Positions 1-35,745 of a DNA stretch of 35,745 bases are shown here, in pieces; position 1 is the first letter of the stretch; each line of letters begins with the position of its first letter. A program made the position numbers and the translations under genes. A model generated the notes under the pieces. It saw only the letters and a list, made by a program, of their open reading frames with translations. It was not told the origin of the DNA and searched no databases. The DNA is from a virus (taxonomy: Duplodnaviria; Heunggongvirae; Uroviricota; Caudoviricetes), in IMG/VR virus record IMGVR_UViG_2548876857_000008, one strand, 5' to 3'.

Positions 1-19
1 TACGACCTCGTTTCATTAA

Positions 20-400
20 TCACTTCCGGGGTGATTTTACTGCTTCAGGTTCATCAATGATAGAGAATAATGGGAGCTGTCGGCGGGCGCTTTCAGAACG
101 CTGGATCTTTTTCACCACTTTGTAGATCCACTGCAAAGTCAGGTTGTACTTCTTCGCCAGTTCGCGGTAGTTGCGTCCATCACACTCCTGCCAGATTTTA
201 TAGTCCCGCGCCGATGTCATGAAGACCATGCCTTTGGGCAGGTAAATGGTTTGTCCGCCCCATGCCTGCATCATGTGATTAGCCACAGCGACGGCAATCT
301 GTTCAGCGATATCATCTTCCATTCCAACCATTTCTTTCAATGTGTTTGCGACGTGGTGCGCAAGGTCAGCAAAGATTTCTGGCTGTTGCGGTTCTTTCAT
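20..400 (-). CDS. mor: Mor/C-family transcriptional activator (middle operon regulator-like)
   Basis: Conserved Mor-like blocks GGQTIYLPKG and IWQECDGRNYRELAKKYNLTLQWIYKVVKK. ATG at 400 overlaps the upstream stop (ATGA) and follows a GGGAGGGG ribosome-binding site; the ORF-track start at 427 has none. Confidence 0.8.
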   Translation of the reverse strand: MKEPQQPEIFADLAHHVANTLKEMVGMEDDIAEQIAVAVANHMMQAWGGQTIYLPKGMVFMTSARDYKIWQECDGRNYRELAKKYNLTLQWIYKVVKKIQRSESARRQLPLFSIIDEPEAVKSPRK

Positions 401-801
401 CTTCCCCTCCCGACACGTGCCAGCCATTTTTTCAGTTGTTCAATCACCTGGCTGGCCTGCTGATTGTTAAGCCACTCCAGCCGGGCGACGCCTGTCTGGC
501 GTTGTACGAACTTATTTAACGCCGACAAACTGCCATCTCTGACCGTACCGCTGGAAGTCAGTTCCTGCCATAACGCGCGGATCATCGCAGACTGCTTATC
601 ATAGGAAGGAGGCTCTTTAGATGTGACTTTGAAGCCCTGTTTTTTCATCACAGCGAAAGCCTTAGCCAGTTGTGAGTCGCTCATTACCCGTAACGATTCA
701 CTGCCGCAGTGTGTTTTAAGTAATTGTCGATACGTAGCCTCATCCAGTCGCAGCTCTCGCCGGGCAACATGGATAACCCGCAATAATTGTGCTCTGTTCA
801 T
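397..801 (-). CDS. gemA: GemA / Mu gp16-like early regulatory protein
   Basis: 134 aa directly upstream of Mor, as in Mu. Basic N-terminus (MNRAQLLRVIHVARRELRLDEATYRQLL) resembles the gp16/GemA family. GGAGG precedes the ATG at 801. Confidence 0.6.
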   Translation of the reverse strand: MNRAQLLRVIHVARRELRLDEATYRQLLKTHCGSESLRVMSDSQLAKAFAVMKKQGFKVTSKEPPSYDKQSAMIRALWQELTSSGTVRDGSLSALNKFVQRQTGVARLEWLNNQQASQVIEQLKKWLARVGRGR

Positions 802-855
802 TCATTCCTCCGTGAGGCGGTTATGACAGGCACAACCGCTGGATAATCAATGTGG

Positions 856-1149
856 CTACACGTCACCACATTGGCAGATCCCAACCATCCTTACGGTTAA
901 TACCGATGGCTCATTTGCGGGAGATATGCAGCTTTTATCGAGGCAGTAATCTTTGCCACGAGATCGGACAACCGCTGAATCATTATTGACGCTGGTTATT
1001 TTCCCTGTTTTTGTCGTTATTCTGATGCGAGTGTTACGGGCGCTCATAGATACTTGCTGCCAGGCAAAACTCACTTTGTCGCCAATGCGAAACGGTACTT
1101 CTTTCTCGGCATATTTCCCGCAGGCCGGGCATTTAACAAACATCATCAT
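856..1149 (-). CDS. hypothetical zinc-ribbon protein
   Basis: 97 aa with N-terminal CPAC and C-terminal CQCG motifs. Overlaps the upstream gene by 17 nt within the early operon. Confidence 0.5.
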   Translation of the reverse strand: MMMFVKCPACGKYAEKEVPFRIGDKVSFAWQQVSMSARNTRIRITTKTGKITSVNNDSAVVRSRGKDYCLDKSCISPANEPSVLTVRMVGICQCGDV

Positions 1150-1411
1150 TTACTACCCCCAACCATTCAGCCAGTCGCGCCAGCTTTTTCGCTTTGCGAT
1201 AATCGATTAGCTTTTCCATACCGTTCTGCCGGAACTGTTCGATCATGATTTCCACATCAGCCATTTCATCCGCCAGCACAGCTTCGTCACAGAAGCCTGT
1301 CAAACCACGCGCGGTTGCGGCGCTGAGTTCGGCTGCTTCCTCGGCTAGCTTCGCCAGTTGTTTCTCCGGCCCCCACTTGCGTAAGGCTGCACGGTAGATA
1401 AGCGTTTTCAT
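1133..1411 (-). CDS. MazG-like nucleotide pyrophosphohydrolase (small all-alpha NTP-PPase)
   Basis: 92 aa with acidic motifs LAEEAAELSAA and DEMADVEIMIEQF typical of MazG/HisE-type NTP pyrophosphatases. GGAGG precedes the ATG at 1411. Confidence 0.55.
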   Translation of the reverse strand: MKTLIYRAALRKWGPEKQLAKLAEEAAELSAATARGLTGFCDEAVLADEMADVEIMIEQFRQNGMEKLIDYRKAKKLARLAEWLGVVNDDVC

Positions 1412-1602
1412 GCGCCTACCTCCGTTGCCGGGGTTAATTCCATAGTGGGAATAAAGGCGTTATAAGCCTGCTCGCAGTGCGGACAGAGCAAAATTAAATT
1501 TACGCACCACTCCTTATATTCATCAGTCTGCAATAAGCTTGCTTGTTGAAAATCCAGTTCAGTGACTTCTTTTTTGCAGTACACACATTTAATCGTCGCC
1601 AT
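1408..1602 (-). CDS. hypothetical small zinc-binding protein
   Basis: Two Cys pairs (CVYCKK, CPHCEQ). ATG at 1602 with a GGGGGTG ribosome-binding site; the track start at 1617 is TTG. Coupled to its neighbours. Confidence 0.5.
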   Translation of the reverse strand: MATIKCVYCKKEVTELDFQQASLLQTDEYKEWCVNLILLCPHCEQAYNAFIPTMELTPATEVGA

Positions 1603-1603
1603 C

Positions 1604-2221
1604 TCACACCCCCGCAATATTCAGCACGACAGGCTGGTATTTATCGCTATCACCGACACGCTGATAAACCCGCACGTAACTTGTTGAGTTCACCACCTGC
1701 ACCGACTCGCCAATGGCCTCCATTGCCTTCAGCCAGCGTGGGTCGGTAATTTCATAGCGGCGCAGCGCCAGTACGCGCCCGGTGGAGATGTTGCCCTCTT
1801 TATCTTCTGCGAATGCTTTCTCCACGATGACCTTCAGCTCTGGCGTGGCCTGTGCCGTCCACTCATGCAGGCACTCATCAATCAAGTTACGGGCGGCTTG
1901 TAACCGTTCATCAAAGGCGATGTTTTCGGCAATCTGGCGCTGGATCTTGTAGCGACCATCAAATGAATGCAGGGTGATGTTGCCTTTCTTGCCTCCGGGG
2001 CGGGCATCATATTGTTCAACGGACAAATCAATAAACGCCTGTATATCGCCAAAACAGCGGTTTTTAAACTCAAGTAATTCAGCATTCATTTTCATTGCGT
2101 CGGCGACGATCTCCTTTACCAGCGCATCGCGTGCGCGGTCAATGGGCTTGATCATAGACTCGGGAACCAGACAACCTTTGGCGTCCTGCCAGTAACCTGC
2201 GGGGATAGTTTTTTCAGTCAT
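1604..2221 (-). CDS. hypothetical early protein (possibly DUF3164-like, as found in Mu-like phages)
   Basis: 205-aa ORF with ATG at 2221 and an upstream GGAG. Family assignment is from memory only. Confidence 0.55.
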   Translation of the reverse strand: MTEKTIPAGYWQDAKGCLVPESMIKPIDRARDALVKEIVADAMKMNAELLEFKNRCFGDIQAFIDLSVEQYDARPGGKKGNITLHSFDGRYKIQRQIAENIAFDERLQAARNLIDECLHEWTAQATPELKVIVEKAFAEDKEGNISTGRVLALRRYEITDPRWLKAMEAIGESVQVVNSTSYVRVYQRVGDSDKYQPVVLNIAGV

Positions 2222-2423: not shown

Positions 2424-3548
2424 TCACACTCCTTTAATCACATCCGCATTCACCACCGGCACGCCGATATCAGCGGCCAGATTCATTGCGGCGATAACCA
2501 GATTCCCCAGCGCCAGCGGATAAAGCAGACTGACGTCACCGCGTCGGGATGAATTACATAATCGGGCGCGGATAGCATCGGCGGTGCTATCATCCAGCAC
2601 CTCGGAAACACCTTTCCCGGTACGCTGAAATTTGAACGCCAGAAACGCTTCCAGATAGTTATCCAGCGGCAGCAGTTCGACGACCTCGCAGCGCTGTACC
2701 ACTTCGCGCACCTCCTGATTACGTTCAGAAAGTTTCAGCTTTAGCTCCGGCTGGCCAATCAACACCACCGACAGCAGTTTTTTAAAGCCGTCCTCCAGCT
2801 CAAAGAACCGCTTCAAATGCTTGAGCGTCGGCACCGGTAGCGAGTGCGCCTCTTCAATAACCAGACAATGTGAGAACCCGGCGCGGGCCGACTCTTTCAG
2901 CACCCGGTGCAACTGGCGGTAACGGGCCTCCTGCGAGCGTTTGACGTTCTCCAGCGGTGCGATGGTGTTGATGATGGCCTCGGCAATCGACGCCGCTTTC
3001 AGAGTTTTGCCTTTGGCGTCGTTGTCTTCCATCGCAATGATGTACGGTTCGATGAGGATAACTGGCGCGTTTTCACGGTTGATGCGATCAGCCAGGTCAC
3101 GGCGTAGCGTGGTTTTCCCTGCGCCGGATTCGCCAACTACGGCGATAAATCCGCCATGTCGCGCGGTCTGATACAGTGCTTCACGCACGTAGCGGATATC
3201 TGGCGTGGTGAACACGTCGTCCGCACTCTGCATAACCTCATCGGCGAACGGGTCGCGGAACAACCCAAAATGCTTCTTCGCCGCTGGATTTAATACCTGT
3301 TTTGCCAGTAACATATTTTCGTCCTCACTGGATGATGTACCGGTGCAGGCGGTGGCCGCCGTCTGCGCCTCCTTCAGTTCAATACCTTTTTCTGCAAAAA
3401 ATGTGCTGATGCGCTCCCGTAGTTCTTCTGTTTTCGGCCACAGGCCGTGATTAACCATCTGCGCGATAACCGCTGCGGAAACTCCGGTAGCCTGTGCTAC
3501 TGCTGCCTGAGTGATGCCACGCTGGCGCAACTGTTGTTTAATCTGCAT
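2424..3548 (-). CDS. MuB-like transposition ATPase (AAA+ target-DNA activator)
   Basis: N-terminal helix-turn-helix (GITQAAVAQATGVSAAVIAQ) and Walker A VVGESGAGKTT. Immediately downstream of the transposase, as in Mu. AGGGGGAG precedes the ATG at 3548. Confidence 0.85.
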   Translation of the reverse strand: MQIKQQLRQRGITQAAVAQATGVSAAVIAQMVNHGLWPKTEELRERISTFFAEKGIELKEAQTAATACTGTSSSEDENMLLAKQVLNPAAKKHFGLFRDPFADEVMQSADDVFTTPDIRYVREALYQTARHGGFIAVVGESGAGKTTLRRDLADRINRENAPVILIEPYIIAMEDNDAKGKTLKAASIAEAIINTIAPLENVKRSQEARYRQLHRVLKESARAGFSHCLVIEEAHSLPVPTLKHLKRFFELEDGFKKLLSVVLIGQPELKLKLSERNQEVREVVQRCEVVELLPLDNYLEAFLAFKFQRTGKGVSEVLDDSTADAIRARLCNSSRRGDVSLLYPLALGNLVIAAMNLAADIGVPVVNADVIKGV

Positions 3549-3557: not shown

Positions 3558-5303
3558 TTAACCGCCGACTACGTTCAGTTGCACTCGGGCGGTAAGCTGC
3601 TGCGCGGCGGCGTCCAGTTCTTCTTCCGCCACGCCTTCTGGCCAGCGTTTCACCAGTTCCTGATACAGTGCGACGTTCCATTCCGGCAACCGTGCTTTCA
3701 GCGCCTTCGCCGCCTCGACGTGAGTCAGACGCCGGGCTTCAACGCGTGGAGCGCGTACCGGGGAATCCTGACCACGACGCGGCAGGAACGCGGGCAGTTC
3801 GCTGTCGGTGATGGGTTTATACGGGTCAAGCCTGCCGCCGAACGGCAGCGCCTTCGCTTTACGCGCCGCAGCCGCGTCCGTCTCGTTATCTGTTCCGGTA
3901 ACAATCTGCTCAATCTGTTTAGCCGCAGTCTGCGCGGGTGTATCGGCGTGGCGCTTGTGATTCTGGCCCAGCACCGCCGCGCCTTCGGCAAAGCCGTATT
4001 CGTCCTTGCGGACTTCCTCCACCAGGTGAAAATACTCGTGGCCATCGTCACCGATGAGCACTACCTGCGCGGCATCGCTGCGCCACGGATTGCGGGTGAT
4101 CATCAGTTTTTCACCCACCATCACATCTGGCACGGTGGAGACGTCGTATTCCGTACCCTGAAACGACACGCGCAGCTTCGGCGTTATCTTGCGGCTTTCC
4201 GGCGCGGCAACAGCCAGTTCGCGGCAGACCTCCACCGATGGCGCTTTGATAAGCTGCTGCGCGGTGATGGTCATCCAGACGTTACTACGCGACTTGCCGT
4301 GGCGGGTGTGAATCGCGGTGGCGTTGAAGTGCTGCCGCCACAGGCGCGCTTTGGCGTTCAGTTCCTCCAGGCTGTGAACCGGCTGGAACTTCAGCCCCGG
4401 TTCAAAGCGGCGTTCGATAATGTCGCGCGCCTTTTCCACCTGCCCGGTGGCGCGGGCGTTGTGGGCTTTATGCGCCACCACGTCAATGCCCAGCGAACGA
4501 CAGAGGTTCTTCGTCATAGCGGCGGTGTTGGCCGAGCCGGGGTCGAGATACAACATATGCGGCACGCCGTGGAGCACATCCGCGCCGCCGCGCTCCTGCA
4601 TGGCATTGATGAGAACGGAACAGAGATTTTCGCCAGACTCCGCCCCCATCACGTATTCAACGTAGATCCAGCCGCTGGTATGGTCGGTCAGTTCATAGCT
4701 CCATACCCGGTCACTGGCGATACGTTGCAGGTTCTTCGGCTTGTTTTTGTAGAACGTCGCGCTGTCCATCACCTGTAACCCGCGCTGGCCGTTGCTGAGG
4801 TAGTACAGCGTGCAGAGCGAGGCGTCGATTTCCCAGACGTGATTGGGGTGCAGACTGGCAAGCTCCGTCACTGGCGCGGGCTGGCTGAGTTGATCCGGGT
4901 GCAGGCCGTAGCCACGCAGCGCCCGGATGATGGTGCTTTCTGACAATGGCACCCACTCGCCGCTTTCCTCATCCAGCCGCCCGGCGTCAATCTCGCCGTT
5001 GGCGCGTAACATCTCCACGGCATCAATGACGGAATACAGGCGCTTGCCGTTCTTACGGGTGGCTTCCGTCAGCGTAGCGGAAATCATCACCGCCTCATCG
5101 CGGGTCAGCGCGGTTTTTCCGGCGTCGGTGCGGCGCTTGCGTTTATCGGTCACGGCAACCTCCTTTATTCTGCGTAACAGCGTGGCGCGGGACAGGCCAA
5201 GTTCCGCGCAGGCGGCAGTGTAGATTGCGCCGCGTGCGCCATGCCCGGCCTGCCGTGCAGCCTGAGCAACAGCAACTAAGCGTTCGGTCATGACGGCGCT
5301 CAT
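3558..5303 (-). CDS. MuA-like DDE transposase (rve/integrase-core superfamily)
   Basis: N-terminal helix-turn-helix, then candidate D-D-E residues (HVWEIDAS, LYLDPGSANT, ATGQVEKARD; D to E spacing 36 aa). Lies between Ner and B. ATG at 5303 has a GGAAGG site 9 nt upstream; the track start at 5312 has zero spacing. Confidence 0.8.
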   Translation of the reverse strand: MSAVMTERLVAVAQAARQAGHGARGAIYTAACAELGLSRATLLRRIKEVAVTDKRKRRTDAGKTALTRDEAVMISATLTEATRKNGKRLYSVIDAVEMLRANGEIDAGRLDEESGEWVPLSESTIIRALRGYGLHPDQLSQPAPVTELASLHPNHVWEIDASLCTLYYLSNGQRGLQVMDSATFYKNKPKNLQRIASDRVWSYELTDHTSGWIYVEYVMGAESGENLCSVLINAMQERGGADVLHGVPHMLYLDPGSANTAAMTKNLCRSLGIDVVAHKAHNARATGQVEKARDIIERRFEPGLKFQPVHSLEELNAKARLWRQHFNATAIHTRHGKSRSNVWMTITAQQLIKAPSVEVCRELAVAAPESRKITPKLRVSFQGTEYDVSTVPDVMVGEKLMITRNPWRSDAAQVVLIGDDGHEYFHLVEEVRKDEYGFAEGAAVLGQNHKRHADTPAQTAAKQIEQIVTGTDNETDAAAARKAKALPFGGRLDPYKPITDSELPAFLPRRGQDSPVRAPRVEARRLTHVEAAKALKARLPEWNVALYQELVKRWPEGVAEEELDAAAQQLTARVQLNVVGG

Positions 5304-5305
5304 GG

Positions 5306-5605
5306 TCAGCATCCTTCCGGTAGTTCGGGAACTAACATCCAGTGGGTGATCTGTTTTGCCGGGTACGTTTCACTGGTGCAGTGAAACTCGCCATCAATAT
5401 AGTTAGCGGTTTCCACGCCGTAGCCATCACAGACCAGCACAAGGTCATAGTCACCAGGCAGTTGTGCGTCAGTGGCTATCCACGGTGAGGCCAGCGCATC
5501 CTTAAAAGCGACTCTCAGCAGTCGGCCACCGAGGATATCGGCGTTAAAGTGGTAACTCGGCTCCTGCGGAGCCTTAGCGAAATCAATAACTAATGTGCGG
5601 ATCAT
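5306..5605 (-). CDS. hypothetical early protein
   Basis: 99 aa; its ATG at 5605 overlaps the upstream stop (ATGA). Confidence 0.5.
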   Translation of the reverse strand: MIRTLVIDFAKAPQEPSYHFNADILGGRLLRVAFKDALASPWIATDAQLPGDYDLVLVCDGYGVETANYIDGEFHCTSETYPAKQITHWMLVPELPEGC

Positions 5606-6537: not shown

Positions 6538-6548
6538 TAACTTGCTCC

Positions 6549-7331: not shown

Positions 7332-7412
7332 TTGTTCCCTCTGAGCTATTATGTACTCAATTGGGTTTATTGTACGTACTCAAACGGGCAAGTCAACGAC
7401 TAATATGCACAA
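7332..7412. promoter_or_regulatory. divergent early/repressor control region with repeated GTAC-core elements
   Basis: 81-bp gap between divergent ner and repressor starts. GTACTCAA occurs at 7353-7360 and 7376-7383, with TGTAC at 7352 and 7371. A TAATAT -10-like hexamer lies at 7401-7406. Confidence 0.45.
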
Positions 7413-23660: not shown

Positions 23661-23664
23661 CACC

Positions 23665-29358: not shown

Positions 29359-29846
29359 AAGGCGTCACCCGACAGACCGGGATTATCAGCGATATCGACG
29401 AGGTGAAGGTGTGCGTGCGCGTCACCCTGCCGGAATGCGACGATCTGCGCACCAACTGGCTCCCCATCCTGCAACGCAATACGCAGGACAATAAGGACTA
29501 CTGGCTGCCGGATATCGGCGAGCAGGTGGAGGTGCTGCTGGATGATAACGGCGAGGATGGCGTGGTGCTGGGGGCGGTCTATTCGTCGGTGGATACGCCA
29601 CCGGTGACGGACAAAGACAAGCGCTATGTGCGGTTCTCCGATAAGGCCGCGATTGAGTACGACCGCAAACAGCACCAGTTGACCATTAATGGCGGCATTG
29701 AAAAAATCGTGATTGAGGTGAAAACCAGCGTCAGCATCACCGCGCCGCAGGTGGTCATCACGGGTAATGTCCGCGTCACCGGCAATATCAGTGCGTCAGG
29801 CTCTATCATCGACGCTGGCGGCAATACCAACCATCACTCTCATTAA
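29355..29846 (+). CDS. baseplate spike protein (P2 gpV / Mu gp45-like)
   Basis: 163 aa with a C-terminal beta-rich VxGN repeat region (ITGNVRVTGNISASGSIID). Confidence 0.7.
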   Translation: MKGVTRQTGIISDIDEVKVCVRVTLPECDDLRTNWLPILQRNTQDNKDYWLPDIGEQVEVLLDDNGEDGVVLGAVYSSVDTPPVTDKDKRYVRFSDKAAIEYDRKQHQLTINGGIEKIVIEVKTSVSITAPQVVITGNVRVTGNISASGSIIDAGGNTNHHSH

Positions 29847-29892
29847 AGCGGTTTAATACCGCCACTTTAGCAACGGGGGCGACAATGCCCCC
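29841..29892 (+). promoter_or_regulatory. inter-operon element: CATTAAAGCGGTTTAATACC motif plus GC hairpin abutting the gpW-like start
   Basis: Motif at 29841-29860 overlaps the gpV-like TAA stop. Hairpin GGGGGC-GACAAT-GCCCCC at 29875-29892 ends at the ATG at 29893. Confidence 0.5.
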
Positions 29893-30252
29893 ATGAGCAC
29901 ACAATCCCATCCTTTAAATCTGCACTGGCAACCGGCCCTGAAACGCGACGGCGAGTACGTCTGTGGGCTGGAGGATATCAGCCAGGCCGTTCACATCATT
30001 CTGCGCACGCCGCGCGGTAGCGATCCCCATCGCCCCTTTTTCGGTAGCGACCTGTGGCGCTATATCGACTGGCCTGCTGAACGGGCGATTCCCCATGTGG
30101 TGCGTGAGTCGGTGGAGGCTATCCGCCACTGGGAGCCGCGCTGCAAATTTCTCAAAGTGGTGCCGGAACTGGACGGCGAACATCTCACGCTGCGCATCCA
30201 GTGGCGCGCCGCCGATGGCGTTATTAATGAAACGGAGGTGGTATGGCGTTAG
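29893..30252 (+). CDS. baseplate wedge protein (P2 gpW / T4 gp25-like)
   Basis: 119 aa immediately before the gpJ-like gene. Confidence 0.7.
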   Translation: MSTQSHPLNLHWQPALKRDGEYVCGLEDISQAVHIILRTPRGSDPHRPFFGSDLWRYIDWPAERAIPHVVRESVEAIRHWEPRCKFLKVVPELDGEHLTLRIQWRAADGVINETEVVWR

Positions 30253-31358
30253 CTGAACCCGATTTTATCGACCGCGACCCGGCGCAAATCACCAGTGAGA
30301 TGATTGCGCAGTATGAAGCGGTGAGCGGTAAAACGCTCTATCCGGCGCAGGCGGAGCGGCTGCTGATTGATGTTATTGCCTATCGTGAAAATCTGCTGCG
30401 CATCGGCATTCAGGAGGCGGCAAAGCAGAATCTGGTGGCGTTTTCCCGTGCGCCAATGCTCGATTACCTCGGCGAACTGGTGGGCGTGAAGCGCCTGCCT
30501 GCGCAGGCGGCACAGACCACGTTGCGGTTTTCCGTTGCCAGCGCGCAAAAGCGCAATGTGCTGATCCCGGAGGGCACCCGCGCCAGCGCGGCCAACAGCG
30601 TGATGTTTGCCACCGATGACGATGTGCTGCTGCCAGCCGGAAGTCTGAGCGTCGATGTCACGGCCACATGTACCACCGCTGGCGTTGTGGGTAATGGCTG
30701 GCAACCGGCGCAGATTAGCGCACTGGTGGACAGCGTGGCAGGTGTCGATTTGCAGGTGACGAACATTACCGCGTCCGGCGGCGGCTGCGCCGATGAAAGC
30801 GACGACGCCCTGCGCGAGCGTATCCGGCTGGCTCCTGAAAGTTTCAGTAACGCGGGGAGTTATGGCGCATACCGCTTTCATGCGCTGTCAGTCAGCCAGG
30901 CGATTATCGACGTGGCCATCCTCGGCCCGGATGAGGGGCTGGATGAAGGTTGCGTGGAGATTTACCCGCTGACGCAGGACGGTCTGCCGGGCGATGAGTT
31001 GCTGGCACAGGTGGTGCAGGATGTCAGTAAAGAGAAGAAACGCCCGTTGACCGATAAGGTAAGCGCGAAGAAACCACTGCGCGTGGCATATCAGATTAAC
31101 GCGCAACTCACGCTATTCACTAAAGCCGATCAGGACTCGACGCTGCTGGCCGCGCGTAAGGCCATCGCCGACTGGACGGCAGAGCGCGAGCGCCATCTGG
31201 GGCGGGATATCGTCCCCAATCAAATCATCAAAGTGTTGCAGGTGGCGGGTGTCTATGACGTGGCGCTGGAAACACCTGCCAAACGAGTGCTCGCGGCACA
31301 TGAGTGGGCGCAGTGTACCTCGATTGATGTGACCATCGCCGGGGTGAGCGATGGATAA
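30243..31358 (+). CDS. baseplate J-like protein (Mu gp47 / P2 gpJ)
   Basis: 371 aa in the conserved position after gpW-like. Confidence 0.75.
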   Translation: MALAEPDFIDRDPAQITSEMIAQYEAVSGKTLYPAQAERLLIDVIAYRENLLRIGIQEAAKQNLVAFSRAPMLDYLGELVGVKRLPAQAAQTTLRFSVASAQKRNVLIPEGTRASAANSVMFATDDDVLLPAGSLSVDVTATCTTAGVVGNGWQPAQISALVDSVAGVDLQVTNITASGGGCADESDDALRERIRLAPESFSNAGSYGAYRFHALSVSQAIIDVAILGPDEGLDEGCVEIYPLTQDGLPGDELLAQVVQDVSKEKKRPLTDKVSAKKPLRVAYQINAQLTLFTKADQDSTLLAARKAIADWTAERERHLGRDIVPNQIIKVLQVAGVYDVALETPAKRVLAAHEWAQCTSIDVTIAGVSDG

Positions 31359-32070
31359 GTTACCGCTTCAACCGCCGCTCGCCGGGGATGAACGCTTTAC
31401 CCGGCTGGCAAATCTTGCCGCTGAACGCTTCGCACAACTCGATCTGACCGCGCTTCTGATTTACCTGGTGGATCTGGTGGATGCCACGGCGCTGCCGTCG
31501 CTGGCAGAACAGTTCCACGTTCAGGGGCTGGAAGGCTGGCTGTTTGCCCGCGATGAGCGACAAAAGCGCGATCTGATCAAGCAGGCCATTGAGCTGCACC
31601 GCTATCGCGGTACGCCGTGGGCAGTGCGTCAGGTACTGAAGATTCTGGCGTTGGACGGCGATATCAGCGAGTGGTTTGAGTATGGCGGTAAGCCGTACTT
31701 TTTCCGCATGGATGTCACGCTTGAGACGCGCGGGCTGACTGAGGATGAATTTAACGCGCTGATTGTGCTGATCCATGAGTACAAGAACGTCCGCTCAAAG
31801 CTGGAGATGCTGACTATCTGGCTGATTAACCAGAGCCAGATCCCGGTTATCGCCAGTGCTGTTCAGGGCGGCGAGATTGCTACCGTTCTGCCGTGGATTG
31901 CGGAGAGCGTGAGTCAGTCGTCTGCGGTTTATCTGGCGACGGAGTGTTTGAGTGCAGAGGTGGTAACGGTGTTGCCTCCGCTGCATGGCAATGTTGAGCA
32001 GACCAGCGTTATGAGTGTTGGAGCGGGCTGCTGGAGTATTGAGTTTGTCACTGTTTACCCGGAGGAGTAA
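31351..32070 (+). CDS. tail protein (P2 gpI / Mu gp48-like)
   Basis: 239 aa between baseplate J and the tail fibre. Confidence 0.65.
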   Translation: MDKLPLQPPLAGDERFTRLANLAAERFAQLDLTALLIYLVDLVDATALPSLAEQFHVQGLEGWLFARDERQKRDLIKQAIELHRYRGTPWAVRQVLKILALDGDISEWFEYGGKPYFFRMDVTLETRGLTEDEFNALIVLIHEYKNVRSKLEMLTIWLINQSQIPVIASAVQGGEIATVLPWIAESVSQSSAVYLATECLSAEVVTVLPPLHGNVEQTSVMSVGAGCWSIEFVTVYPEE

Positions 32071-33770
32071 TGGCGAGTGAATTTTTTACCATTTTAACCG
32101 CCGCTGGCCGCGCGAAGATTGCTGCGGCGCTGGCGGAACAAAAGCAGATAGTGCTGCAAACAATGGTCGTTGGCGACGGCGGCGGGCAGTATGCCGAACC
32201 GAAAGAGAGCCAGACAAAGGTGGTGCGTGAAGTCTGGCGCGGGTCACTGAATACGCTGAAAATCGCCCCGGAAAACCCGGCGTGGGTGATTGCCGAGGCG
32301 GTACTGCCGGAAGCGAAAGGCGGCTGGTATATCCGCGAGGTGGGATTGCTGGATATGGACGGCGTGCTGATTGCCATCGGCAAGTTCCCGGAAACCTATA
32401 AGCCGAAGCTGCCTGCCGGGGCCAGTAAGCAAATTGTGATCCGCGCTGTGATGGAAGTGACGAACGCGGCGGCGGTAACGCTGATGGTTGATCCGTCGCT
32501 GGTGATGGCAACGGTAGATTATGTGGACTCCAGTATTGAAGAGCACGAAAGATCACATAATCACCCGGACGCAACGCTGACGCAGAAAGGCTTTACGCAG
32601 CTTAACAGCTCCACCAATAGCACGCTGGAAACGCAGGCAGCAACGCCGAAGGCGGTGAAGGCGGCGATGGATAAGGCGAATGAGGCACTGGAAAAAGCTG
32701 GGGCTGATAAAGCGCATAAACATCTGTGGGCCGATATTACCGGGGTGCCGGATGGGACAACGGCGCAGAAAGGGGTTGTGAAGCTTAATAGCTCAACGAA
32801 CAGTACCAGTACGACGGAGGCTGCGACACCGAGTGCGGTTAAGGCGGCATATGACCTGGCGAATGGTAAGGCGGCGGGGAGCCATAAACATGCCTGGGGC
32901 GATATTACCGGGGTACCGGATGGCACTACGGCGCAAAAAGGGATCGTAAAGCTCAACAGCGCGACGAACAGCACCAGTACTACCGAAGCGGCCACGCCCG
33001 GCGCAGTGAAGGCGGCGTATGACCTGGCGAACGGGAAAGCGGCTTCCAGCCATACTCACGCATGGAGTCAGATTACCGGCGTACCGGATGCAACTACAGC
33101 GCAAAAAGGGGTTGTGAAGCTTAATAGCGCGACGAACAGTACCAGTACGACTGAAGCCGCAACGCCGAGCGCGGTTAAGGCGGCGTATGACAAGGCGAAT
33201 ACAGCAATCTCCAGTTTTGCTCTTTTCACGTCGAATGGGACGTTTACGGTGCCAGTCGGGGTAACGAAAGTGATGGTGGAAATGATTGGAGGTGGAGGTG
33301 GTGGCGGCGGCGGTGGTGTGGGTGGTGGTGAGCGAATTGGTTATCCGACAGCAGGTAAACCATCACTTTTTGTTCAAGGGATTGTTGCTGTGAACTCTGG
33401 ACAAAATGTAACCGTCACAGTCGGCGGAGGCGGTGTTGGGGGATCATCAAAAGTAGATACTGGTGGTGGTTCGATGACCGGGAGTAATGGGTACGCCGGA
33501 GGAAACTCAATTTTCTTAACGCTCACTTCTGTTGGTGGTAGCGGCGGCGGCGGTGCATTGCCAGATTCTGGTCCTGGCAACGCATTAAATGAGCCAGGTT
33601 CTGATTCAACGCATGGCTATGGCGGGGGGACTAAGTATAACTCGCAGAAAAATGCCGTAGGTTATGGTTCGAGTGGTGCGGCTGGTACCTCTAAAGGCGT
33701 CAGAACTGTTGAAGGGGACTCTACAGCAGGTGGCAATGGTGCTTCAGGTTTTGTCAGAATATGGTGGTAA
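32070..33770 (+). CDS. tail fibre protein with internal tandem repeats and poly-Gly tract
   Basis: N-terminus resembles P2 gpH / Mu S fibre N-domains. Four tandem repeats of about 56 aa at 32580-33200; Gly run at 33290-33328. Confidence 0.8.
   Translation: MASEFFTILTAAGRAKIAAALAEQKQIVLQTMVVGDGGGQYAEPKESQTKVVREVWRGSLNTLKIAPENPAWVIAEAVLPEAKGGWYIREVGLLDMDGVLIAIGKFPETYKPKLPAGASKQIVIRAVMEVTNAAAVTLMVDPSLVMATVDYVDSSIEEHERSHNHPDATLTQKGFTQLNSSTNSTLETQAATPKAVKAAMDKANEALEKAGADKAHKHLWADITGVPDGTTAQKGVVKLNSSTNSTSTTEAATPSAVKAAYDLANGKAAGSHKHAWGDITGVPDGTTAQKGIVKLNSATNSTSTTEAATPGAVKAAYDLANGKAASSHTHAWSQITGVPDATTAQKGVVKLNSATNSTSTTEAATPSAVKAAYDKANTAISSFALFTSNGTFTVPVGVTKVMVEMIGGGGGGGGGGVGGGERIGYPTAGKPSLFVQGIVAVNSGQNVTVTVGGGGVGGSSKVDTGGGSMTGSNGYAGGNSIFLTLTSVGGSGGGGALPDSGPGNALNEPGSDSTHGYGGGTKYNSQKNAVGYGSSGAAGTSKGVRTVEGDSTAGGNGASGFVRIWW
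32580..33200 (+). repeat. four in-frame tandem repeats (about 168-183 bp) inside the tail-fibre gene
   Basis: Repeated unit TAQKGVVKLNS(A/S)TNSTSTTEAATP(S/G)AVKAAYDLANGKAA(G/S)SH(K/T)HAWGDITGVPDG, with units starting near 32580, 32763, 32931 and 33099. Confidence 0.85.
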
Positions 33771-33773
33771 CAC

Positions 33774-34376
33774 ATGAAATATGCGTATTTTGAACCCTCA
33801 TCAATGAAGGTTTTAGACTGGCTGGATACCGAACAATTATCCTTTGTTTTGCCTGACAGTGTTGTTTCGGTAACTGATGAGCAATGGTGTTATCGTGATC
33901 GTGAATGCTGGGTCAATATTTCAACCACAGAAATCATCACAACACCTCCACCCGGTGATTTTTATCGGCTTGATGGTGATAAGTGGGTGTATGACGCAAC
34001 CAGCTATACTGCTGCGCTAGACGGTGCTAAGTCACTAGTTGTTAAGGCAATCAAGGCGCTACGCGATGAAGTCACTGCCGATTATATCATTATCGGCGAC
34101 TATCACTTTCACAGCGATGCCAGCAGTCGTATCCAGCAAATGTCACTCACCAGGATGGGGCAAACGAAGCAAATCCCCAAAGGCTTAATGTGGCAGACCA
34201 AAAACCTCGGACTTCTCGAGCTAACCAATGAAATCGCGGCGCAGTTTGAGTCCATTACAATGGATCACGATATGCGCCTCTTTGCCAATGCCCAGCGACA
34301 TATTGCCGCCGTTGAGGCGCTGGAAGATATCCTGGCAGTTCAGGAGTATGACTACTCTACGGGGTGGCAACCATGA
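33774..34376 (+). CDS. putative tail fibre assembly chaperone
   Basis: 200 aa immediately after the fibre gene; AT-richer than the structural genes. Confidence 0.5.
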   Translation: MKYAYFEPSSMKVLDWLDTEQLSFVLPDSVVSVTDEQWCYRDRECWVNISTTEIITTPPPGDFYRLDGDKWVYDATSYTAALDGAKSLVVKAIKALRDEVTADYIIIGDYHFHSDASSRIQQMSLTRMGQTKQIPKGLMWQTKNLGLLELTNEIAAQFESITMDHDMRLFANAQRHIAAVEALEDILAVQEYDYSTGWQP

Positions 34377-34825
34377 AGCCGGTGTATCTGGCGTTCTATA
34401 AAGGGCGAGCCGATCATCATGGGTTCGCACGTCTTTCCGACTGGCTGACGCGGCTGGTGACGCGGGGTGAGTATTCTCACTGCGAGCTGGCTGTTGACCA
34501 GGGTAACGGCGAGTTTCTTTGTTATTCGTCGTCGATGCGTGACAAGGGGGTGCGCTGTAAGCAAATGCCGCTGCCACTCGATAAATGGGATCTTATCGCG
34601 CTAAATGCGCTACCAACCAGTGTGGAGCAGTTCTTCCGTCGAAACGACGCCATGAAATATGACTGGCTGGGGGCTGTGGGATTCGTTGTTTTTAATCGTG
34701 GACGGGAGAACAAATATTTCTGTAGCGAGTTTTGCGCAGATTTTCTTGGACTGGTCGATAGCTGGCGTTATTCACCCAATATGCTCCACGCGCTGGCCAG
34801 CAGTATTCAGACTATGAAGTTATAA
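34373..34825 (+). CDS. hypothetical protein with conserved His/Cys residues
   Basis: About 150 aa; GGGGTGG precedes the ATG at 34373. Contains YSHCEL and YFCSEFC. Confidence 0.5.
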   Translation: MKPVYLAFYKGRADHHGFARLSDWLTRLVTRGEYSHCELAVDQGNGEFLCYSSSMRDKGVRCKQMPLPLDKWDLIALNALPTSVEQFFRRNDAMKYDWLGAVGFVVFNRGRENKYFCSEFCADFLGLVDSWRYSPNMLHALASSIQTMKL

Positions 34826-34909
34826 GGGAAACAGCGACCAGAGTCAGGCGGTCACCTGACTCTGACCAGCTAACCCGCAGGAAGTGTCTGCGAGCCGCCC
34901 AGGGCTGCC

Positions 34910-34925
34910 ACTGATGGCCATCAGT
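34910..34925. promoter_or_regulatory. perfect 16-bp palindrome ACTGATGGCCATCAGT upstream of the methyltransferase gene
   Basis: Exact dyad 47 bp before the ATG at 34972; a 10-bp stem-loop lies further upstream at 34839-34864. Confidence 0.3.
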
Positions 34926-34971
34926 CCAATAAGCCTAACAGTTTTTCACATACTGAAAAAGGTTTGCAGAA

Positions 34972-35745
34972 ATGAAAACATTACCCATTATTCCGTGGCC
35001 CGGCGGTAAGCGTCGTCTGGCCAAAAAGTTATTACCGTTATTTCCTGAGCACCAGTGTTATGTAGAGCCATTCTGCGGCGGTGCAGCCTTGTATTTCATG
35101 AAGGAGCCGGTTGAAGCTGAAGTCCTGAACGATATCAACGGCGAACTGGTGAATCTGTACCGTGTGGTTAAAAATCATCTTGAAGAGTTTGTGCGCCAGT
35201 TCAAGTGGGCGTTGAGCAGCAGGCAGATTTTTGAATGGTCGAAAATGACCATCCCGGAGACGCTAACTGATATTCAGCGTGCAGCGCGGTTTTATTATCT
35301 CCAGAAGCAATCATTCGGAGGGAAAGTGGAATCACAGACGTATGGAACGGCGACCACTTCTGCACCACGGCTTAATCTGCTAAGGCTGGAAGAGGAGTTG
35401 AGCGCCGCCCATTTGCGGCTATCACGCACGTTTGTAGAACATTTACCGTGGCGTACCTGCATTGAGAAGTATGATCGCCCGCACACACTGTTCTATTGCG
35501 ATCCCCCGTATTGGGGAACGGAGGGCTACGGTGTTGAATTTGGACTGGAGCAGTACACCCAACTTGCAGAGTTGGCCAGAACGATAAAAGGCAGGATGTT
35601 GATCAGTGTGAACGATATCCCGGAGATGCGTGAAACCTTTGCGGACTTGTCGATTGATACGGTAGATATTCGCTATACGTTGAGCGGTGGGCCTAATGCT
35701 AATCGCTCGAAAGTCAGCCGTGAGCTGGTCATTCGTAACTGGTAA
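34972..35745 (+). CDS. DNA N6-adenine methyltransferase, Dam-like (D12 class)
   Basis: N-terminal PWPGGKRRL (AdoMet-binding motif I) and catalytic DPPY (CDPPYWGTEGYG). Complete ORF; its TAA ends at the window edge. Confidence 0.85.
   Translation: MKTLPIIPWPGGKRRLAKKLLPLFPEHQCYVEPFCGGAALYFMKEPVEAEVLNDINGELVNLYRVVKNHLEEFVRQFKWALSSRQIFEWSKMTIPETLTDIQRAARFYYLQKQSFGGKVESQTYGTATTSAPRLNLLRLEEELSAAHLRLSRTFVEHLPWRTCIEKYDRPHTLFYCDPPYWGTEGYGVEFGLEQYTQLAELARTIKGRMLISVNDIPEMRETFADLSIDTVDIRYTLSGGPNANRSKVSRELVIRNW

What the first reader, a model, noticed from the sequence alone, without database searches (positions are those of the whole stretch)
1..35745. Mu gene set in a divergent layout: early operon leftward and late genes rightward from a central repressor/ner switch
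In Mu the repressor is at the left end and ner-A-B, the accessory early genes, mor and the late genes all run rightward. Here ner, A, B, gemA and mor run leftward from the switch at 7332-7412, and the repressor, accessory cassette, lysis, head and tail genes run rightward. The late region keeps Mu gene order but ends in a Dam-like methyltransferase instead of com/mom, with no invertible G segment or gin. The repressor is an XRE-type HTH protein, not the Mu c type. BcepMu/B3-like phages may share this layout, but that is from memory.
Basis: partly seen in the sequence, partly recalled or inferred. Interest (0 to 1): 0.5.

Follow-up and report, generated by a model that had tools for sequence, protein, structure and literature searches.

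The report
BcepMu-like transposable prophage in E. coli
The window is an almost complete, apparently intact transposable prophage of Escherichia coli; its layout (early genes leftward, late genes rightward) is real, but it is the standard layout of the BcepMu/B3 group of Mu-like phages, described long ago, and not a new arrangement.

Summary
Thirteen ORFs run leftward from 7331 to 20: a small HTH protein, a DDE transposase, an AAA ATPase, GemA and Mor. About 35 ORFs run rightward from 7413: an XRE-type repressor, cargo genes, lysis, head and tail genes, and a Dam methylase. There is no gin, G segment or com/mom.

It is not a rearranged Mu. Thirty-six of 49 proteins match Burkholderia phage BcepMu in the same order and orientation (transposase 68% identical, ATPase 59%). 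Only about 8 match Mu. The transposase and ATPase have no detectable similarity to MuA/MuB, and the tail is P2-type. BcepMu and B3 have exactly this layout, as do 61 of 66 informative related loci from other species. The literature already describes it as an inversion of the early operon.

The window is not a join artefact. The same element sits at several E. coli sites, each flanked by a 6-bp (not 5-bp) target duplication. Its ends lie 126 bp and 84 bp outside the window.

Three side findings:
- The termini are 5'-TA...TA-3', where all surveyed relatives have TG...CA.
- The two genes after the repressor distantly resemble the DS-1 anti-phage system.
- dam replaces com-mom behind a conserved leader.

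The layout is known; this phage is a new member of a known kind.

The parts
20..427 (-). Mor-family late transcription activator. Last gene of the leftward early operon and the only Mor/C-family gene in the window. The gene call in identical contigs is 20-400 (126 aa).
   Evidence: PF08765 E 1.7e-39; 41% identical to BcepMu gp01 and 28% to Mu Mor; Mu C also hits only this gene; gene call.
397..801 (-). GemA (Mu gp16) homologue.
   Evidence: PF06252 E 5e-35; 43% identical to BcepMu gp02 and 38% to Mu gp16.
856..2221 (-). Accessory early genes: 856-1149, MazG/PRA-PH-like 1133-1411, zinc-ribbon-like 1408-1617, DUF3164 1604-2221.
   Evidence: Pfam; PHROG families; DUF3164 is 66% identical to BcepMu gp05.
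2424..3548 (-). Transposition ATPase, the functional counterpart of MuB. AAA_22/ExeA-like with an N-terminal HTH. Not a MuB homologue.
   Evidence: PF13401 E 2e-20 and HTH_3 at residues 3-34; 59% identical to BcepMu gp08 and 54% to B3 ORF11, no hit to Mu.
3558..5312 (-). DDE (rve) transposase of the BcepMu/B3 (Tn552/IS481-related) family, the functional counterpart of MuA. Candidate catalytic triad D163, D257, E293.
   Evidence: rve E 6e-7 and no Mu-transposase domains; partial IS481-family match E 4e-18; 68% identical to BcepMu gp09 and 59% to B3; no similarity to MuA; D163/D257/E293 invariant in 82 relatives.
5306..7084 (-). Early genes between the switch and the transposase: DUF551-like 5306-5605 (absent from the 90% E. 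coli relative), DUF3102 protein 5602-6537 (BcepMu gp10-like), MarR-type wHTH 6549-6848 (BcepMu gp12-like), and 6845-7084 (no family).
7095..7331 (-). First gene of the leftward early operon: a 78-aa helix-turn-helix protein in the position of Ner/Cro. It carries a 4-codon duplication at its start (MNKLMNK).
7332..7412 (.). Divergent regulatory switch, 81 bp. It holds a leftward sigma-70-like promoter (TTGACT-16-TACAAT, 7396 to 7369). Two 16-nt direct repeats, TAYGTACTCAAWYGGG, lie at 7350-7365 and 7373-7388, 23 bp apart; these are candidate operators.
   Evidence: The repeats and their spacing are conserved in relatives with similar immunity genes (L012, L020, L071). Function is inferred.
7413..7823 (+). 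Lysogeny repressor: XRE/cI-type HTH, 136 aa, with a helical charged C-terminus and no S24 peptidase domain.
   Evidence: HTH_3 E 4.7e-8 and Phage_CI_repr E 1.5e-4; repressor PHROGs; weak similarity to BcepMu gp17 (25%, E 8e-4) and none to Mu c.
7847..8383 (+). Cargo gene: predicted lipoprotein (signal peptide ending in the lipobox LLSGC).
   Evidence: Sequence read directly; no Pfam or PADLOC hit; lies in the low-GC stretch 7001-11000.
8410..10697 (+). Two-gene cargo module. The first gene is a YejK/NA37 nucleoid-associated protein (8410/8461-9492). The second is a 402-aa protein with two C-terminal transmembrane helices (9489-10697). Together they are a distant relative of the DS-1 anti-phage system.
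   Evidence: PF04245 E 6e-74; NF053868 DS1_1 E 2.5e-18 and NF053869 DS1_2 E 8e-21, both far below the equivalog cutoffs; hydrophobic segments at residues 283-309 and 346-379; the same pair in the same slot in L015, L020, L045, L044/L062, L050 and adjacent in Sinorhizobium phage phi2LM21; DS-1 = YejK-domain protein plus a partner, validated in PMC13092281.
10751..12373 (+). Lysis cassette: holin 10751-11053, SLT endolysin 11026-11790, Rz-like ORF ending at 12373.
   Evidence: PF13272 E 4e-33 and PF01464 E 1e-14; 55%, 61% and 30% identical to BcepMu gp21, gp22 and gp23.
12370..21655 (+). Mu-type packaging and head module: two small ORFs, gp27 (TerS-like) 12983-13543, TerL 13540-15147, portal 15054-16625, F 16570-17427, G 17424-17963, protease/scaffold 18142-19233, capsid 19245-20183, cement 20180-20521, gp36 20518-20964, gp37 20964-21428, and 21425-21655.
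   Evidence: Pfam families Phage_Mu_Gp27, Portal_Mu, Phage_Mu_F, Phage_tail_S, Phage_Mu_Gp36, Gp37; collinear with BcepMu gp25-gp38.
21645..34825 (+). P2-type contractile tail module: sheath FI, tube FII, chaperone E, tape measure 24361-27135, gpU, X, D, V, W, J, I, fibre H 32070-33770, DUF4376 assembly protein, and 34364-34825.
   Evidence: Pfam families Phage_sheath_1, Phage_tube, Phage_TAC_7, Phage_P2_GpU, Phage_tail_X, Phage_GPD, Phage_base_V, GPW_gp25, Baseplate_J, Tail_P2_I, Phage_tail_fib; collinear with BcepMu gp39-gp51; Mu L, M, N, P and gp45-48 give no hit.
24042..24320 (-). The only opposite-strand ORF in the late arm: 92 aa with about three hydrophobic helices and no family.
   Evidence: 79% identical in the E. 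coli relative L001.
34914..35745 (+). DNA-modification slot: a conserved com-type leader (34914-34988) followed by a Dam (D12 class) N6-adenine methylase at 34972-35745. The closest E. coli relative carries com-mom here.
   Evidence: PF02086 E 1.5e-28; TIGR00571 dam 116.5 bits, above its cutoff; 66% identical to B3 ORF48 Dam; leader 72% identical over 25 codons to the 5' part of the relative's com ORF; com and mom annotated in L001.

Best explanation
The window is the coding part of a 35,955-bp BcepMu-type transposable (Mu-like) prophage of Escherichia coli. The window was trimmed at gene boundaries, so only the non-coding ends are missing: 126 bp on the left and 84 bp on the right.

Shown here:
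- The gene content and order match BcepMu.
- The element inserts as one unit at different chromosomal sites, each time with a 6-bp target duplication.
- Its imperfect terminal inverted repeats align in register with those of BcepMu and B3.

Inferred from the anatomy and from RNA-seq of the B3-like phage Fc02:
- In the lysogen, the XRE-type repressor (7413-7823) is transcribed rightward together with the cargo genes behind it. It binds the two repeats in the 81-bp switch and shuts off the leftward early promoter.
- On induction, one long leftward transcript is made. It carries, in order, the Ner/Cro-like HTH protein, the DDE transposase, the AAA ATPase, accessory genes, GemA and finally Mor.
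- The transposase and ATPase replicate the genome by transposition.
- Mor is made last and is the only Mor/C-family protein. It acts in trans on the rightward late operons (lysis and packaging, head, P2-type tail, dam).

The divergent layout is therefore the normal architecture of this phage family and not a rearrangement of Mu.
For: - Gene identities come from Pfam, PHROGs and NCBIfam.
- 36 of 49 proteins hit BcepMu in the same order and orientation; about 8 hit Mu.
- The annotated BcepMu and B3 genomes show the same layout.
- Among 80 loci from other species that encode a related transposase, 61 of 66 informative ones carry the late genes upstream on the opposite strand (my count from the table).
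- A 90%-identical prophage with the same layout lies between ybjC and grxA in E. coli OkiPb01694.
- Copies identical to the window (0-8 mismatches per 10 kb) lie at other E. coli sites.
- Four element/flank pairs of this lineage, plus one 76% relative, each show a 6-bp duplication.
- The terminal sequences align in register with the BcepMu and B3 ends.
- The DDE residues are invariant in 82 relatives.
[quoted passage not shown] BcepMu has a Tn552-related transposase, a P2-like right end and no G region (PMC2628397).
- Fc02 RNA-seq shows the repressor plus a downstream accessory gene expressed in the lysogen. A reverse-strand pE operon runs from ner to mor, followed by forward-strand late clusters that start at holin-endolysin (PMC9936078).
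Against: - No experiment on this element exists. The promoters, operators and Mor targets are consensus or conservation inferences.
- No terminator was found between the cargo genes and the holin gene (53-bp gap). How lysogenic transcription is kept out of the lysis genes is therefore unexplained.
- The termini are TA...TA, not the TG...CA reported for BcepMu-type elements. This could mean reduced activity, although the multiple insertion sites argue otherwise.
- The Ner-like protein and the repressor have no, or only marginal, sequence similarity to the BcepMu, B3 or Mu counterparts.
- No close relative exists among sequenced phage isolates; the best covers 16% of the first 25 kb at 77% identity. 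Virion production is unproven.
Confidence: 0.93

Rival explanations
1. It is a true Mu-family (Muvirus) phage in which the early region was recently inverted relative to the late region.
For: Mor, GemA, TerL, portal, F, G and gp36 are detectably Mu-related. The overall size and module order resemble Mu.
Against: - The transposase and ATPase have no similarity to MuA/MuB, while they are 68% and 59% identical to the BcepMu proteins.
- The repressor, endolysin and tail are not Mu-type.
- The target duplication is 6 bp, not 5 bp.
- The same arrangement is found in 61 related loci across Gamma- and Betaproteobacteria, so it is ancestral to the group and not recent.
Confidence: 0.02
2. The window is an assembly or binning artefact that joins two elements back to back at the 'switch'.
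For: - Composition changes sharply at 7-11 kb (GC 0.44-0.47 against about 0.58).
- The immunity genes have no counterpart in the otherwise 90%-identical relative.
Against: - The same continuous arrangement occurs in a complete E. coli chromosome and in many independent assemblies.
- The 6-bp duplications flank the whole 35-36 kb unit, and no end sequences lie inside it.
- BcepMu and B3 virion genomes have the same join.
- The low-GC stretch is the exchangeable immunity and cargo region.
Confidence: 0.01
3. It is a BcepMu-type element but a defective or domesticated prophage. The non-canonical TA termini cripple transposition, and the element is kept for its cargo (lipoprotein, DS-1-like pair, Dam).
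For: - The termini differ from the TG...CA of all 41 surveyed relatives and of BcepMu, B3 and L092.
- No phage isolate of this lineage is in the phage collection.
- One close relative (Lelliottia, L012) is visibly degraded.
Against: - All modules are intact with no interrupted ORFs.
- The DDE triad is conserved.
- Nearly identical copies sit at at least three different E. coli sites, and two diverged variants sit at others, each with a clean 6-bp duplication. This requires recent movement with the TA ends.
- The TA state is retained at both ends in lineages that have diverged to 90% identity.
Confidence: 0.1

Closest known systems
Burkholderia phage BcepMu (NC_005882; genus Bcepmuvirus) and phiE255
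   Same: - Identical architecture: Mor and GemA at the far left, a leftward early operon with an rve transposase and an ExeA-like ATPase, a small HTH gene facing a cI-type repressor, accessory genes, holin/SLT/Rz, a Mu-type head, a P2-type tail, and a cargo gene at the right end.
- 36 of 49 proteins are homologous (34-69% identity).
- The terminal repeats align in register: GTGAGATA at positions 10-17 and a CGATAA site near position 35.
- Neither has a G segment (PMC2628397).
   Different: - There is no nucleotide-level similarity to BcepMu (it is absent from the megablast hits).
- The host is E. coli.
- The termini are TA...TA, not TG...CA.
- The immunity proteins are essentially unrelated.
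- The cargo differs: lipoprotein, DS-1-like pair and dam, against a membrane protein and an acyltransferase.
- TerL is only 42% identical.
Pseudomonas phage B3 and B3-like beetreviruses (e.g. Fc02)
   Same: - The same divergent early/late layout, described in the literature as an inversion of the early operon (PMC5977238).
- Transposase 57-59% and ATPase 54% identical.
- Dam 66% identical to B3 ORF48.
- The Fc02 transcription programme fits the layout (PMC9936078).
   Different: - B3 has a siphovirus-type tail with no P2 module.
- In B3, com-dam sits inside the tail region and not at the right end.
- B3 ends are TG...CA.
Escherichia phage Mu (NC_000929)
   Same: - A transposable temperate phage of similar size.
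- Mor, GemA, TerL, portal, F, G and gp36 are homologous (24-44% identity).
- Early regulation uses a divergent repressor/Ner-type switch.
- A DNA-modification gene lies at the right end.
   Different: - In Mu the early and late genes are collinear.
- MuA, MuB, c, the endolysin, the tail, gin/G and com-mom have no counterpart here.
- Mu has both Mor and C; this element has one Mor-family gene.
- Mu makes a 5-bp duplication and has TG...CA ends (own knowledge; the Mu ends are shown). This element makes 6 bp and has TA...TA ends.
Prophages in E. coli OkiPb01694 (NZ_AP042564, between ybjC and grxA) and CFSAN051542 (NZ_CP020835, between napH and napB); phages PhiKM, Phi06_2974 B and Klebsiella KP12
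   Same: - The OkiPb01694 prophage is 90% identical over 82% of the first 25 kb. It has the same layout, the same TA...TA ends, a 6-bp duplication and the same DS-1-like pair at 98% identity.
- The CFSAN051542 type has the same layout and a 6-bp duplication.
   Different: - OkiPb01694: different immunity genes, TerL only 25% identical, com-mom in place of dam, and no DUF551-like ORF.
- CFSAN051542 type: about 76% identity over about 20% of the query, TG...CA ends, an invertible fibre segment with a recombinase, and dam in the accessory slot.
Tn552 / IS481-type DDE transposons
   Same: - The transposase is rve-type with a partial IS481-family match.
- BcepMu's orthologue is annotated as a Tn552/IS1604 rve transposase.
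- It is partnered with a P-loop ATPase.
- The 6-bp duplication fits the 6-7 bp reported for Tn552 (own knowledge).
   Different: Scores are far below the IS-family cutoffs (65.9 against 224 bits). The element is a 36-kb phage, not an insertion sequence or transposon.

Membership tests
Phage Mu type (Muvirus) | MuA-type transposase (Mu-specific HTH and C-terminal domains) and MuB | tested here: not met
   Only an rve core below threshold and no Mu-transposase Pfam domains. No BLAST similarity to MuA or MuB.
Phage Mu type (Muvirus) | Repressor at the left end, with ner-A-B, mor and the late genes all rightward | tested here: not met
   The early operon runs leftward from 7331 and the late genes rightward from 7413.
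Phage Mu type (Muvirus) | 5-bp target duplication and 5'-TG...CA-3' termini | tested here: not met
   Four 6-bp duplications in this lineage. Termini are TAATCAG...GGCTTTA.
Phage Mu type (Muvirus) | Invertible G segment with gin, and com-mom | tested here: not met
   No gin, mom or com hit and no bracketing inverted repeats. Dam occupies the slot.
Phage Mu type (Muvirus) | Mor and GemA, and Mu-type head genes (gp27, portal, F, G, gp36) | tested here: met
   Pfam families all above their cutoffs.
BcepMu-type transposable phages (Tn552-related transposase, inverted early operon) | rve transposase and ExeA-like AAA ATPase orthologous to BcepMu gp09 and gp08 | tested here: met
   68% and 59% identity over the full length.
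BcepMu-type transposable phages (Tn552-related transposase, inverted early operon) | Divergent layout: Mor at the left end, a leftward early operon, and a rightward cI-type repressor followed by lysis, head and tail genes | tested here: met
   Gene-for-gene match to the BcepMu annotation.
BcepMu-type transposable phages (Tn552-related transposase, inverted early operon) | Mu-type head joined to a P2-type contractile tail, with no G segment | tested here: met
   PMC2628397.
BcepMu-type transposable phages (Tn552-related transposase, inverted early operon) | Imperfect terminal inverted repeats with repeated GAGATA/CGATAA sites | tested here: met
   In-register alignment with both ends of BcepMu and B3. 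The same left-end motif is present in 41 related loci.
BcepMu-type transposable phages (Tn552-related transposase, inverted early operon) | 5'-TG...CA-3' terminal dinucleotides (stated as characteristic in PMC2628397) | tested here: not met
   TA at both ends, defined by divergence points at four insertion sites. The same holds in the 90% relative and in a further variant, L121. All surveyed relatives have TG.
BcepMu-type transposable phages (Tn552-related transposase, inverted early operon) | Replicative transposition, with virion DNA carrying variable host ends | not testable with these tools
   Only prophage copies are available. Multiple insertion sites with duplications show transposition-type integration, not replication or packaging.
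Genus Bcepmuvirus (nucleotide-level membership) | High genome-wide nucleotide identity to BcepMu (about 70% is the usual ICTV genus criterion; own knowledge) | tested here: not met
   BcepMu is not among the megablast hits of either half of the window. Protein identities are 34-69%.
Ner family (Mu Ner / Nlp) | Sequence membership in the Ner-type HTH family | tested here: not met
   No Pfam hit at E<=0.01. A profile of 28 homologues finds no Ner chain in the PDB. BLAST against Mu Ner gives 20 residues at E 0.15.
Ner family (Mu Ner / Nlp) | Ner-like fold, and position as the first gene of the early operon facing the repressor | tested here: inconclusive
DS-1 anti-phage system (DefensePredictor) | Two adjacent genes: a YejK/NA37-domain protein plus a DS1_2-type partner | tested here: inconclusive
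   Both proteins hit the two DS-1 models (E 2.5e-18 and 8e-21), but at 66 and 74.5 bits against equivalog cutoffs of 330 and 315. Pairing is conserved across phages. No PADLOC 2023 hit.
DS-1 anti-phage system (DefensePredictor) | Protection against phage infection | not testable with these tools
   Needs an efficiency-of-plating assay. DS-1 itself was validated in PMC13092281.

The most novel reading that the evidence does not exclude
This E. coli lineage of BcepMu-type phages transposes with 5'-TA...TA-3' termini. The penultimate base of the transferred 3' end is T, where rve-type elements (Mu, Tn7, Tn552, IS3, retroviruses) almost always have C. Both ends have changed, and all 41 surveyed relatives, plus BcepMu, B3 and the other E. 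coli type, keep TG...CA in the same register. No accompanying change was found at any conserved transposase residue. If correct, this is a natural experiment on how strictly the terminal CA is required. It suggests that only the pyrimidine-purine step and the terminal A are needed. Separately, the repressor-linked YejK-like/membrane-protein pair may be a diverged DS-1-type defence system carried by transposable prophages.
Probability: 0.55. Interest if true: 0.4.

Novelty: new member of a known kind. Interest (0 to 1): 0.2.

Why it matters
For the finding as given, it matters little. The divergent early/late layout has been textbook knowledge for BcepMu- and B3-type transposable phages since 2004, and it is the majority arrangement among relatives of this transposase.

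What the window adds:
- A well-delimited, seemingly active E. coli representative of the group, widespread in draft genomes but without a sequenced phage isolate.
- Exact ends and a 6-bp target duplication.
- Three exchangeable slots: immunity genes, cargo behind the repressor, and the DNA-modification gene at the right end.

What a specialist might follow up:
- The non-canonical TA termini, as a natural test of the conserved terminal CA rule.
- The DS-1-like YejK/membrane-protein pair sitting where lysogen-expressed defence genes are expected.

Tried and rejected
- **Mu homology of A, B, ner, c and the tail.** tblastn and blastp of the Mu proteins against the window gave nothing beyond Mor/C and fibre repeats. 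The 'Mu gene set' label is dropped.
- **Ner membership.** Pfam, NCBIfam and a 28-sequence profile against PDB sequences gave no Ner hit. The fold search placed Mu Ner among many HTH proteins. This is left as 'Ner-like by position'.
- **PADLOC** on the cargo genes gave no hit except generic methylase models for Dam.
- **Compensatory transposase changes** to explain the TA ends. No position that is >=93% conserved in TG-ended relatives differs in the TA lineage.
- **Terminator between the cargo genes and the holin gene.** None is convincing.
- **Lelliottia wanjuensis locus L012** (the closest species-representative relative) as a further end example. Its terminal 16 nt have diverged and the B-to-Mor region is deleted, so it is uninformative.
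- **Invertible segment.** Only two weak inverted repeats, inside genes, taken as chance.
- **Rfam, tRNA and tandem-repeat scans.** Nothing, apart from the 168-bp repeats that encode fibre repeats.
- **IMG/VR pattern scan.** Six of the eight 'TA' matches lack the second binding-site motif and are chance hits. Only L113 and L121 are real ends.
- **First Python attempt** at the junction analysis failed because a file had not yet been written. It was redone by reading the sequences directly.

Full report
**1. What is in the window**

ORF listing and composition show two gene arms that diverge from an 81-bp gap at 7332-7412. GC skew is negative to the left of about 5 kb and positive to the right of about 7 kb. 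A low-GC stretch (0.44-0.47, against about 0.58 elsewhere) covers 7-11 kb.

The left arm is on the minus strand (Pfam). Reading from the switch outward:
- a 78-aa protein (7095-7331)
- 6845-7084
- a MarR-type winged-helix protein (6549-6848)
- a DUF3102 protein (5602-6537)
- a DUF551-like ORF (5306-5605)
- an rve-type DDE transposase (3558-5312)
- an AAA_22 ATPase with an N-terminal HTH (2424-3548)
- DUF3164 (1604-2221)
- three small ORFs
- GemA (397-801)
- Mor (20-427)

The right arm is on the plus strand:
- an HTH_3 repressor (7413-7823)
- three cargo genes
- holin, SLT endolysin and an Rz-like ORF
- Mu-type gp27, TerL, portal, F, G, protease/scaffold, capsid, cement, gp36 and gp37
- a P2-type tail: sheath FI, tube FII, chaperone E, tape measure, U, X, D, V, W, J, I, fibre H, and a DUF4376 assembly protein
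- a D12/Dam methylase (34972-35745), whose stop codon is the last base of the window

Gene calls in contigs identical to the window agree with these coordinates.

**2. It is not a rearranged Mu**

I ran tblastn of the 49 window proteins against the complete genomes of BcepMu, B3, Mu and the closest E. coli prophage.
- 36 proteins match BcepMu, in the same order and on the same strands. Examples: transposase 68%, ATPase 59%, portal 62%, sheath 69%, tube 68%.
- Only Mor, GemA, TerL, portal, F, G, gp36 and part of the fibre match Mu.
- The reverse test (Mu A, B, c, ner, lys, I, T, L, M, N, P, gp45-48, gin, com, mom against the window) gave hits only for C (to the Mor gene) and for fibre repeats.
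- The transposase has only a sub-threshold rve core, a partial IS481-family match and none of the Mu-transposase domains.

So 'A' and 'B' are functional counterparts of MuA/MuB and not homologues.

The 'ner' gene matches no Ner model.
- It has a weak, sub-threshold match to the BcepMu gp16 family.
- A profile of 28 homologues finds no Ner chain among PDB sequences.

It is Ner/Cro-like by position and fold class only.

**3. The layout is the known BcepMu/B3 layout**

The annotated BcepMu genome reads, from the left:
- leftward: Mor, GemA, ..., DUF3164, ..., the ExeA-like transposition protein, the Tn552/IS1604-type transposase, gp10, ..., and an HTH protein
- rightward: a cro/cI-type repressor, accessory genes, holin, SLT endolysin, Rz/Rz1, TerS, TerL, portal, F, G, I/Z, T, ..., P2-type FI, FII, T, U, D, V, W, J, I, H, and finally a cargo gene

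B3 has the same left half and switch.

The literature says the same.
[quoted passage not shown] - PMC2628397 notes BcepMu's Tn552-related transposase, P2-like right end and lack of a G region.

I tested how general the layout is. I fetched 80 loci from one-genome-per-species contigs that encode a relative of the transposase (46-88% identity; Enterobacterales, Pseudomonadales, Burkholderiales, Neisseriales and others). I then mapped the window proteins on them. By my count from that table:
- 61 loci have the lysis and packaging genes upstream of the transposase on the opposite strand.
- 5 loci (L042, L043, L066, L075, L076) have them downstream of Mor on the same strand, which is the Mu-like arrangement.
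- 14 loci are uninformative.

The window therefore shows the majority architecture of its family.

**4. Ends, target duplications and the artefact test**

A 90%-identical prophage lies between ybjC and grxA in E. coli OkiPb01694. Comparison with the empty K-12 site gives its exact junctions.

Exact-protein look-ups found the window's Mor and Dam proteins in hundreds of assembly blocks and at three further chromosomal contexts. The flanks are E. coli (100% identity). Those copies differ from the window by 0-8 mismatches per 10 kb.

The points where these copies diverge define the element:
- It starts at 5'-TAATCAGTAGTGAGATAAACC, 126 bp left of window position 1.
- It ends at ...GCGCGGCTTTA-3', 84 bp right of the window end.
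- Its total length is 35,955 bp.

The window was evidently trimmed at gene boundaries.

Each of four insertions of this lineage has a perfect 6-bp duplication: GGCGAT, GCACCG, TTTTCA and GCTTCC. A 76%-type E. coli prophage between napH and napB also has one (TCATGA). This refutes an artefactual join and corrects the expected 5 bp to 6 bp. Six base pairs fits a Tn552-type enzyme (own knowledge).

**5. How it most likely works**

The switch contains several candidate regulatory elements.
- It holds a leftward promoter-like site (TTGACT-16-TACAAT, 10 of 12 matches).
- It holds two 16-nt direct repeats, 23 bp apart, that flank and partly overlap the promoter's -10 region.
- The repeats and their spacing are conserved in relatives with related immunity genes, and they differ in relatives with other immunity genes.
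- The repressor start codon has no obvious leader.

- The lysogen transcribes the repressor and the cargo behind it.
- Induction fires one leftward operon from the Ner-like gene to Mor.
- Rightward late clusters, starting at holin-endolysin, follow.
- Only one Mor/C-family gene exists, so the cascade probably has two tiers and not Mu's three.

One motif may mark late promoters. TTTA(N)AAAGC occurs five times, all in the gaps before the holin gene (10698-10750) and before the protease/scaffold gene (17964-18141). Only 0.46 occurrences are expected by chance. It is a candidate late-promoter or Mor-site element, which is inference only. The second gap is also where Mu has its strong gyrase site.

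One point is unexplained. No terminator separates the cargo genes from the holin gene.

**6. Things that differ from the described family**

(a) Termini.
- Both ends align in register with the BcepMu and B3 ends: GTGAGATA/GCGCGATA at positions 10-17 and a second CGATAA-type site near position 35.
- However, this element begins TA, not TG.
- All 41 related loci in which the left-end motif was found begin TG. So do the napH/napB prophage and 24 IMG/VR matches.
- The TA state is present at both ends in three diverged variants: the window, the ybjC/grxA prophage, and IMG/VR locus L121.
- PMC2628397 calls TG...CA characteristic of BcepMu-related prophages.
- The multiple recent insertions show that TA ends work.
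- No conserved transposase residue differs in this lineage, and D163, D257 and E293 are invariant.

(b) Cargo behind the repressor.
- The first gene encodes a predicted lipoprotein (7847-8383; lipobox LLSGC).
- It is followed by a YejK/NA37 protein plus a 402-aa protein with two C-terminal transmembrane helices.
- These two hit the NCBIfam models of the two DS-1 anti-phage proteins at E 2.5e-18 and 8e-21, far below the equivalog cutoffs.
- DS-1 is the YejK-domain system validated by DefensePredictor (PMC13092281).
- The pair recurs in the same slot in Pectobacterium, Mixta, Brenneria, Jeongeupia and Terasakiispira prophages. It is also adjacent in an unrelated Sinorhizobium phage.

(c) The modification slot.
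- The closest relative carries com-mom here, while the window carries dam (66% identical to B3 Dam).
- dam sits behind a leader 72% identical over 25 codons to the 5' part of the relative's com ORF.

(d) Mosaicism against the 90% relative.
- The immunity genes are unrelated.
- TerL is only 25% identical.
- There is an extra DUF551-like ORF.

**7. Verdict**

The layout is already known. The element is a new, well-delimited E. coli member of the BcepMu-type transposable phages. No close phage isolate is in the collection. Interest in the finding as posed is low. The TA termini and the DS-1-like cargo are modest leads.

Noticed in passing
Just outside the window: 126 bp left of position 1 and 84 bp right of 35745 (seen in L003-L008, L001 12875 and 48214): The element's termini are 5'-TAATCAG...GGCTTTA-3' (TA...TA). 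They align in register with BcepMu and B3 ends that begin TG. All 41 surveyed related loci, the other E. coli type and 24 IMG/VR matches begin TG. Three diverged variants of this lineage keep TA at both ends.
   Followed up: yes
Junctions in L003/L006, L004/L007, L005/L008, L001, L092: Target-site duplications are 6 bp (GGCGAT, GCACCG, TTTTCA, GCTTCC, TCATGA), not the 5 bp of Mu.
   Followed up: yes
window 8410-10697: A YejK/NA37 nucleoid-associated protein plus a 402-aa protein with two C-terminal transmembrane helices. Both distantly match the two proteins of the validated DS-1 anti-phage system. The pair is conserved in the same slot in several other species' prophages and in Sinorhizobium phage phi2LM21.
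   Followed up: partly
window 7847-8383: The first gene after the repressor encodes a predicted lipoprotein (signal peptide with lipobox LLSGC) with no family assignment. It is a candidate superinfection-exclusion or lysogenic-conversion gene.
   Followed up: partly
window 34826-35745 versus L001 47152-48131: dam replaces com-mom at the right end. The upstream leader (34914-34988) is conserved between the two prophages, which suggests cassette exchange behind one late promoter.
   Followed up: partly
window 10703-10711 and 18010-18114: The motif TTTA(N)AAAGC occurs five times (0.46 expected), only in the non-coding gaps before the holin gene and before the protease/scaffold gene. The second gap (17964-18141, between G and the I-like gene) is where Mu has its strong gyrase site.
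   Followed up: partly
window 10698-10750: Only 53 bp and no recognisable terminator separate the repressor-linked cargo genes from the holin gene. How lysogenic transcription is kept out of the lysis genes is unexplained.
   Followed up: partly
window 13540-15147: TerL is 42% identical to BcepMu's and 37% to Mu's, but only 25% identical to that of the otherwise 90%-identical E. coli relative. This indicates a module swap. G and gp27 are also much more diverged (53% and 78%) than their neighbours.
   Followed up: no
window 24042-24320 (minus strand): A 92-aa, roughly three-helix membrane protein encoded against the direction of the tail operon, between the tail chaperone and the tape measure gene. 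It is conserved (79%) in the E. coli relative and has no family.
   Followed up: no
window 5306-5605: A DUF551-like 99-aa ORF lies between the transposase and the DUF3102 gene and is absent from the 90% relative.
   Followed up: no
window 7310-7333: A 12-nt tandem duplication (GTTTGTTCATTA/GTTTGTTCATTT) at the start of the Ner-like gene gives an MNKLMNK N-terminus. The Lelliottia relative and most homologues (74 aa) lack it.
   Followed up: partly
L042, L043, L066, L075, L076: Five loci with a related transposase have the packaging genes downstream of Mor on the same strand (Mu-like collinear order). This matches the 'two genomic organisations' reported for phages with Tn552-related transposases.
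   Followed up: partly
L092 (E. coli CFSAN051542, 1705127-1740633 of NZ_CP020835): A 76%-type BcepMu-like prophage between napH and napB carries an opposed pair of fibre-assembly genes plus a recombinase (a G-segment-like invertible region). It also has a dam gene in the accessory slot. So gin/G and dam are both movable options within this family.
   Followed up: partly
window 7001-11000: A low-GC island (0.44-0.47, against about 0.58) covers the switch, the repressor and the cargo genes, consistent with horizontal exchange of the immunity and cargo region.
   Followed up: partly
window 32715-33200: A 168-bp tandem repeat (2.9 copies, 79% identical) inside the tail fibre gene corresponds to Phage_fiber_2 repeats, the only part of the fibre similar to Mu S.
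   Followed up: partly
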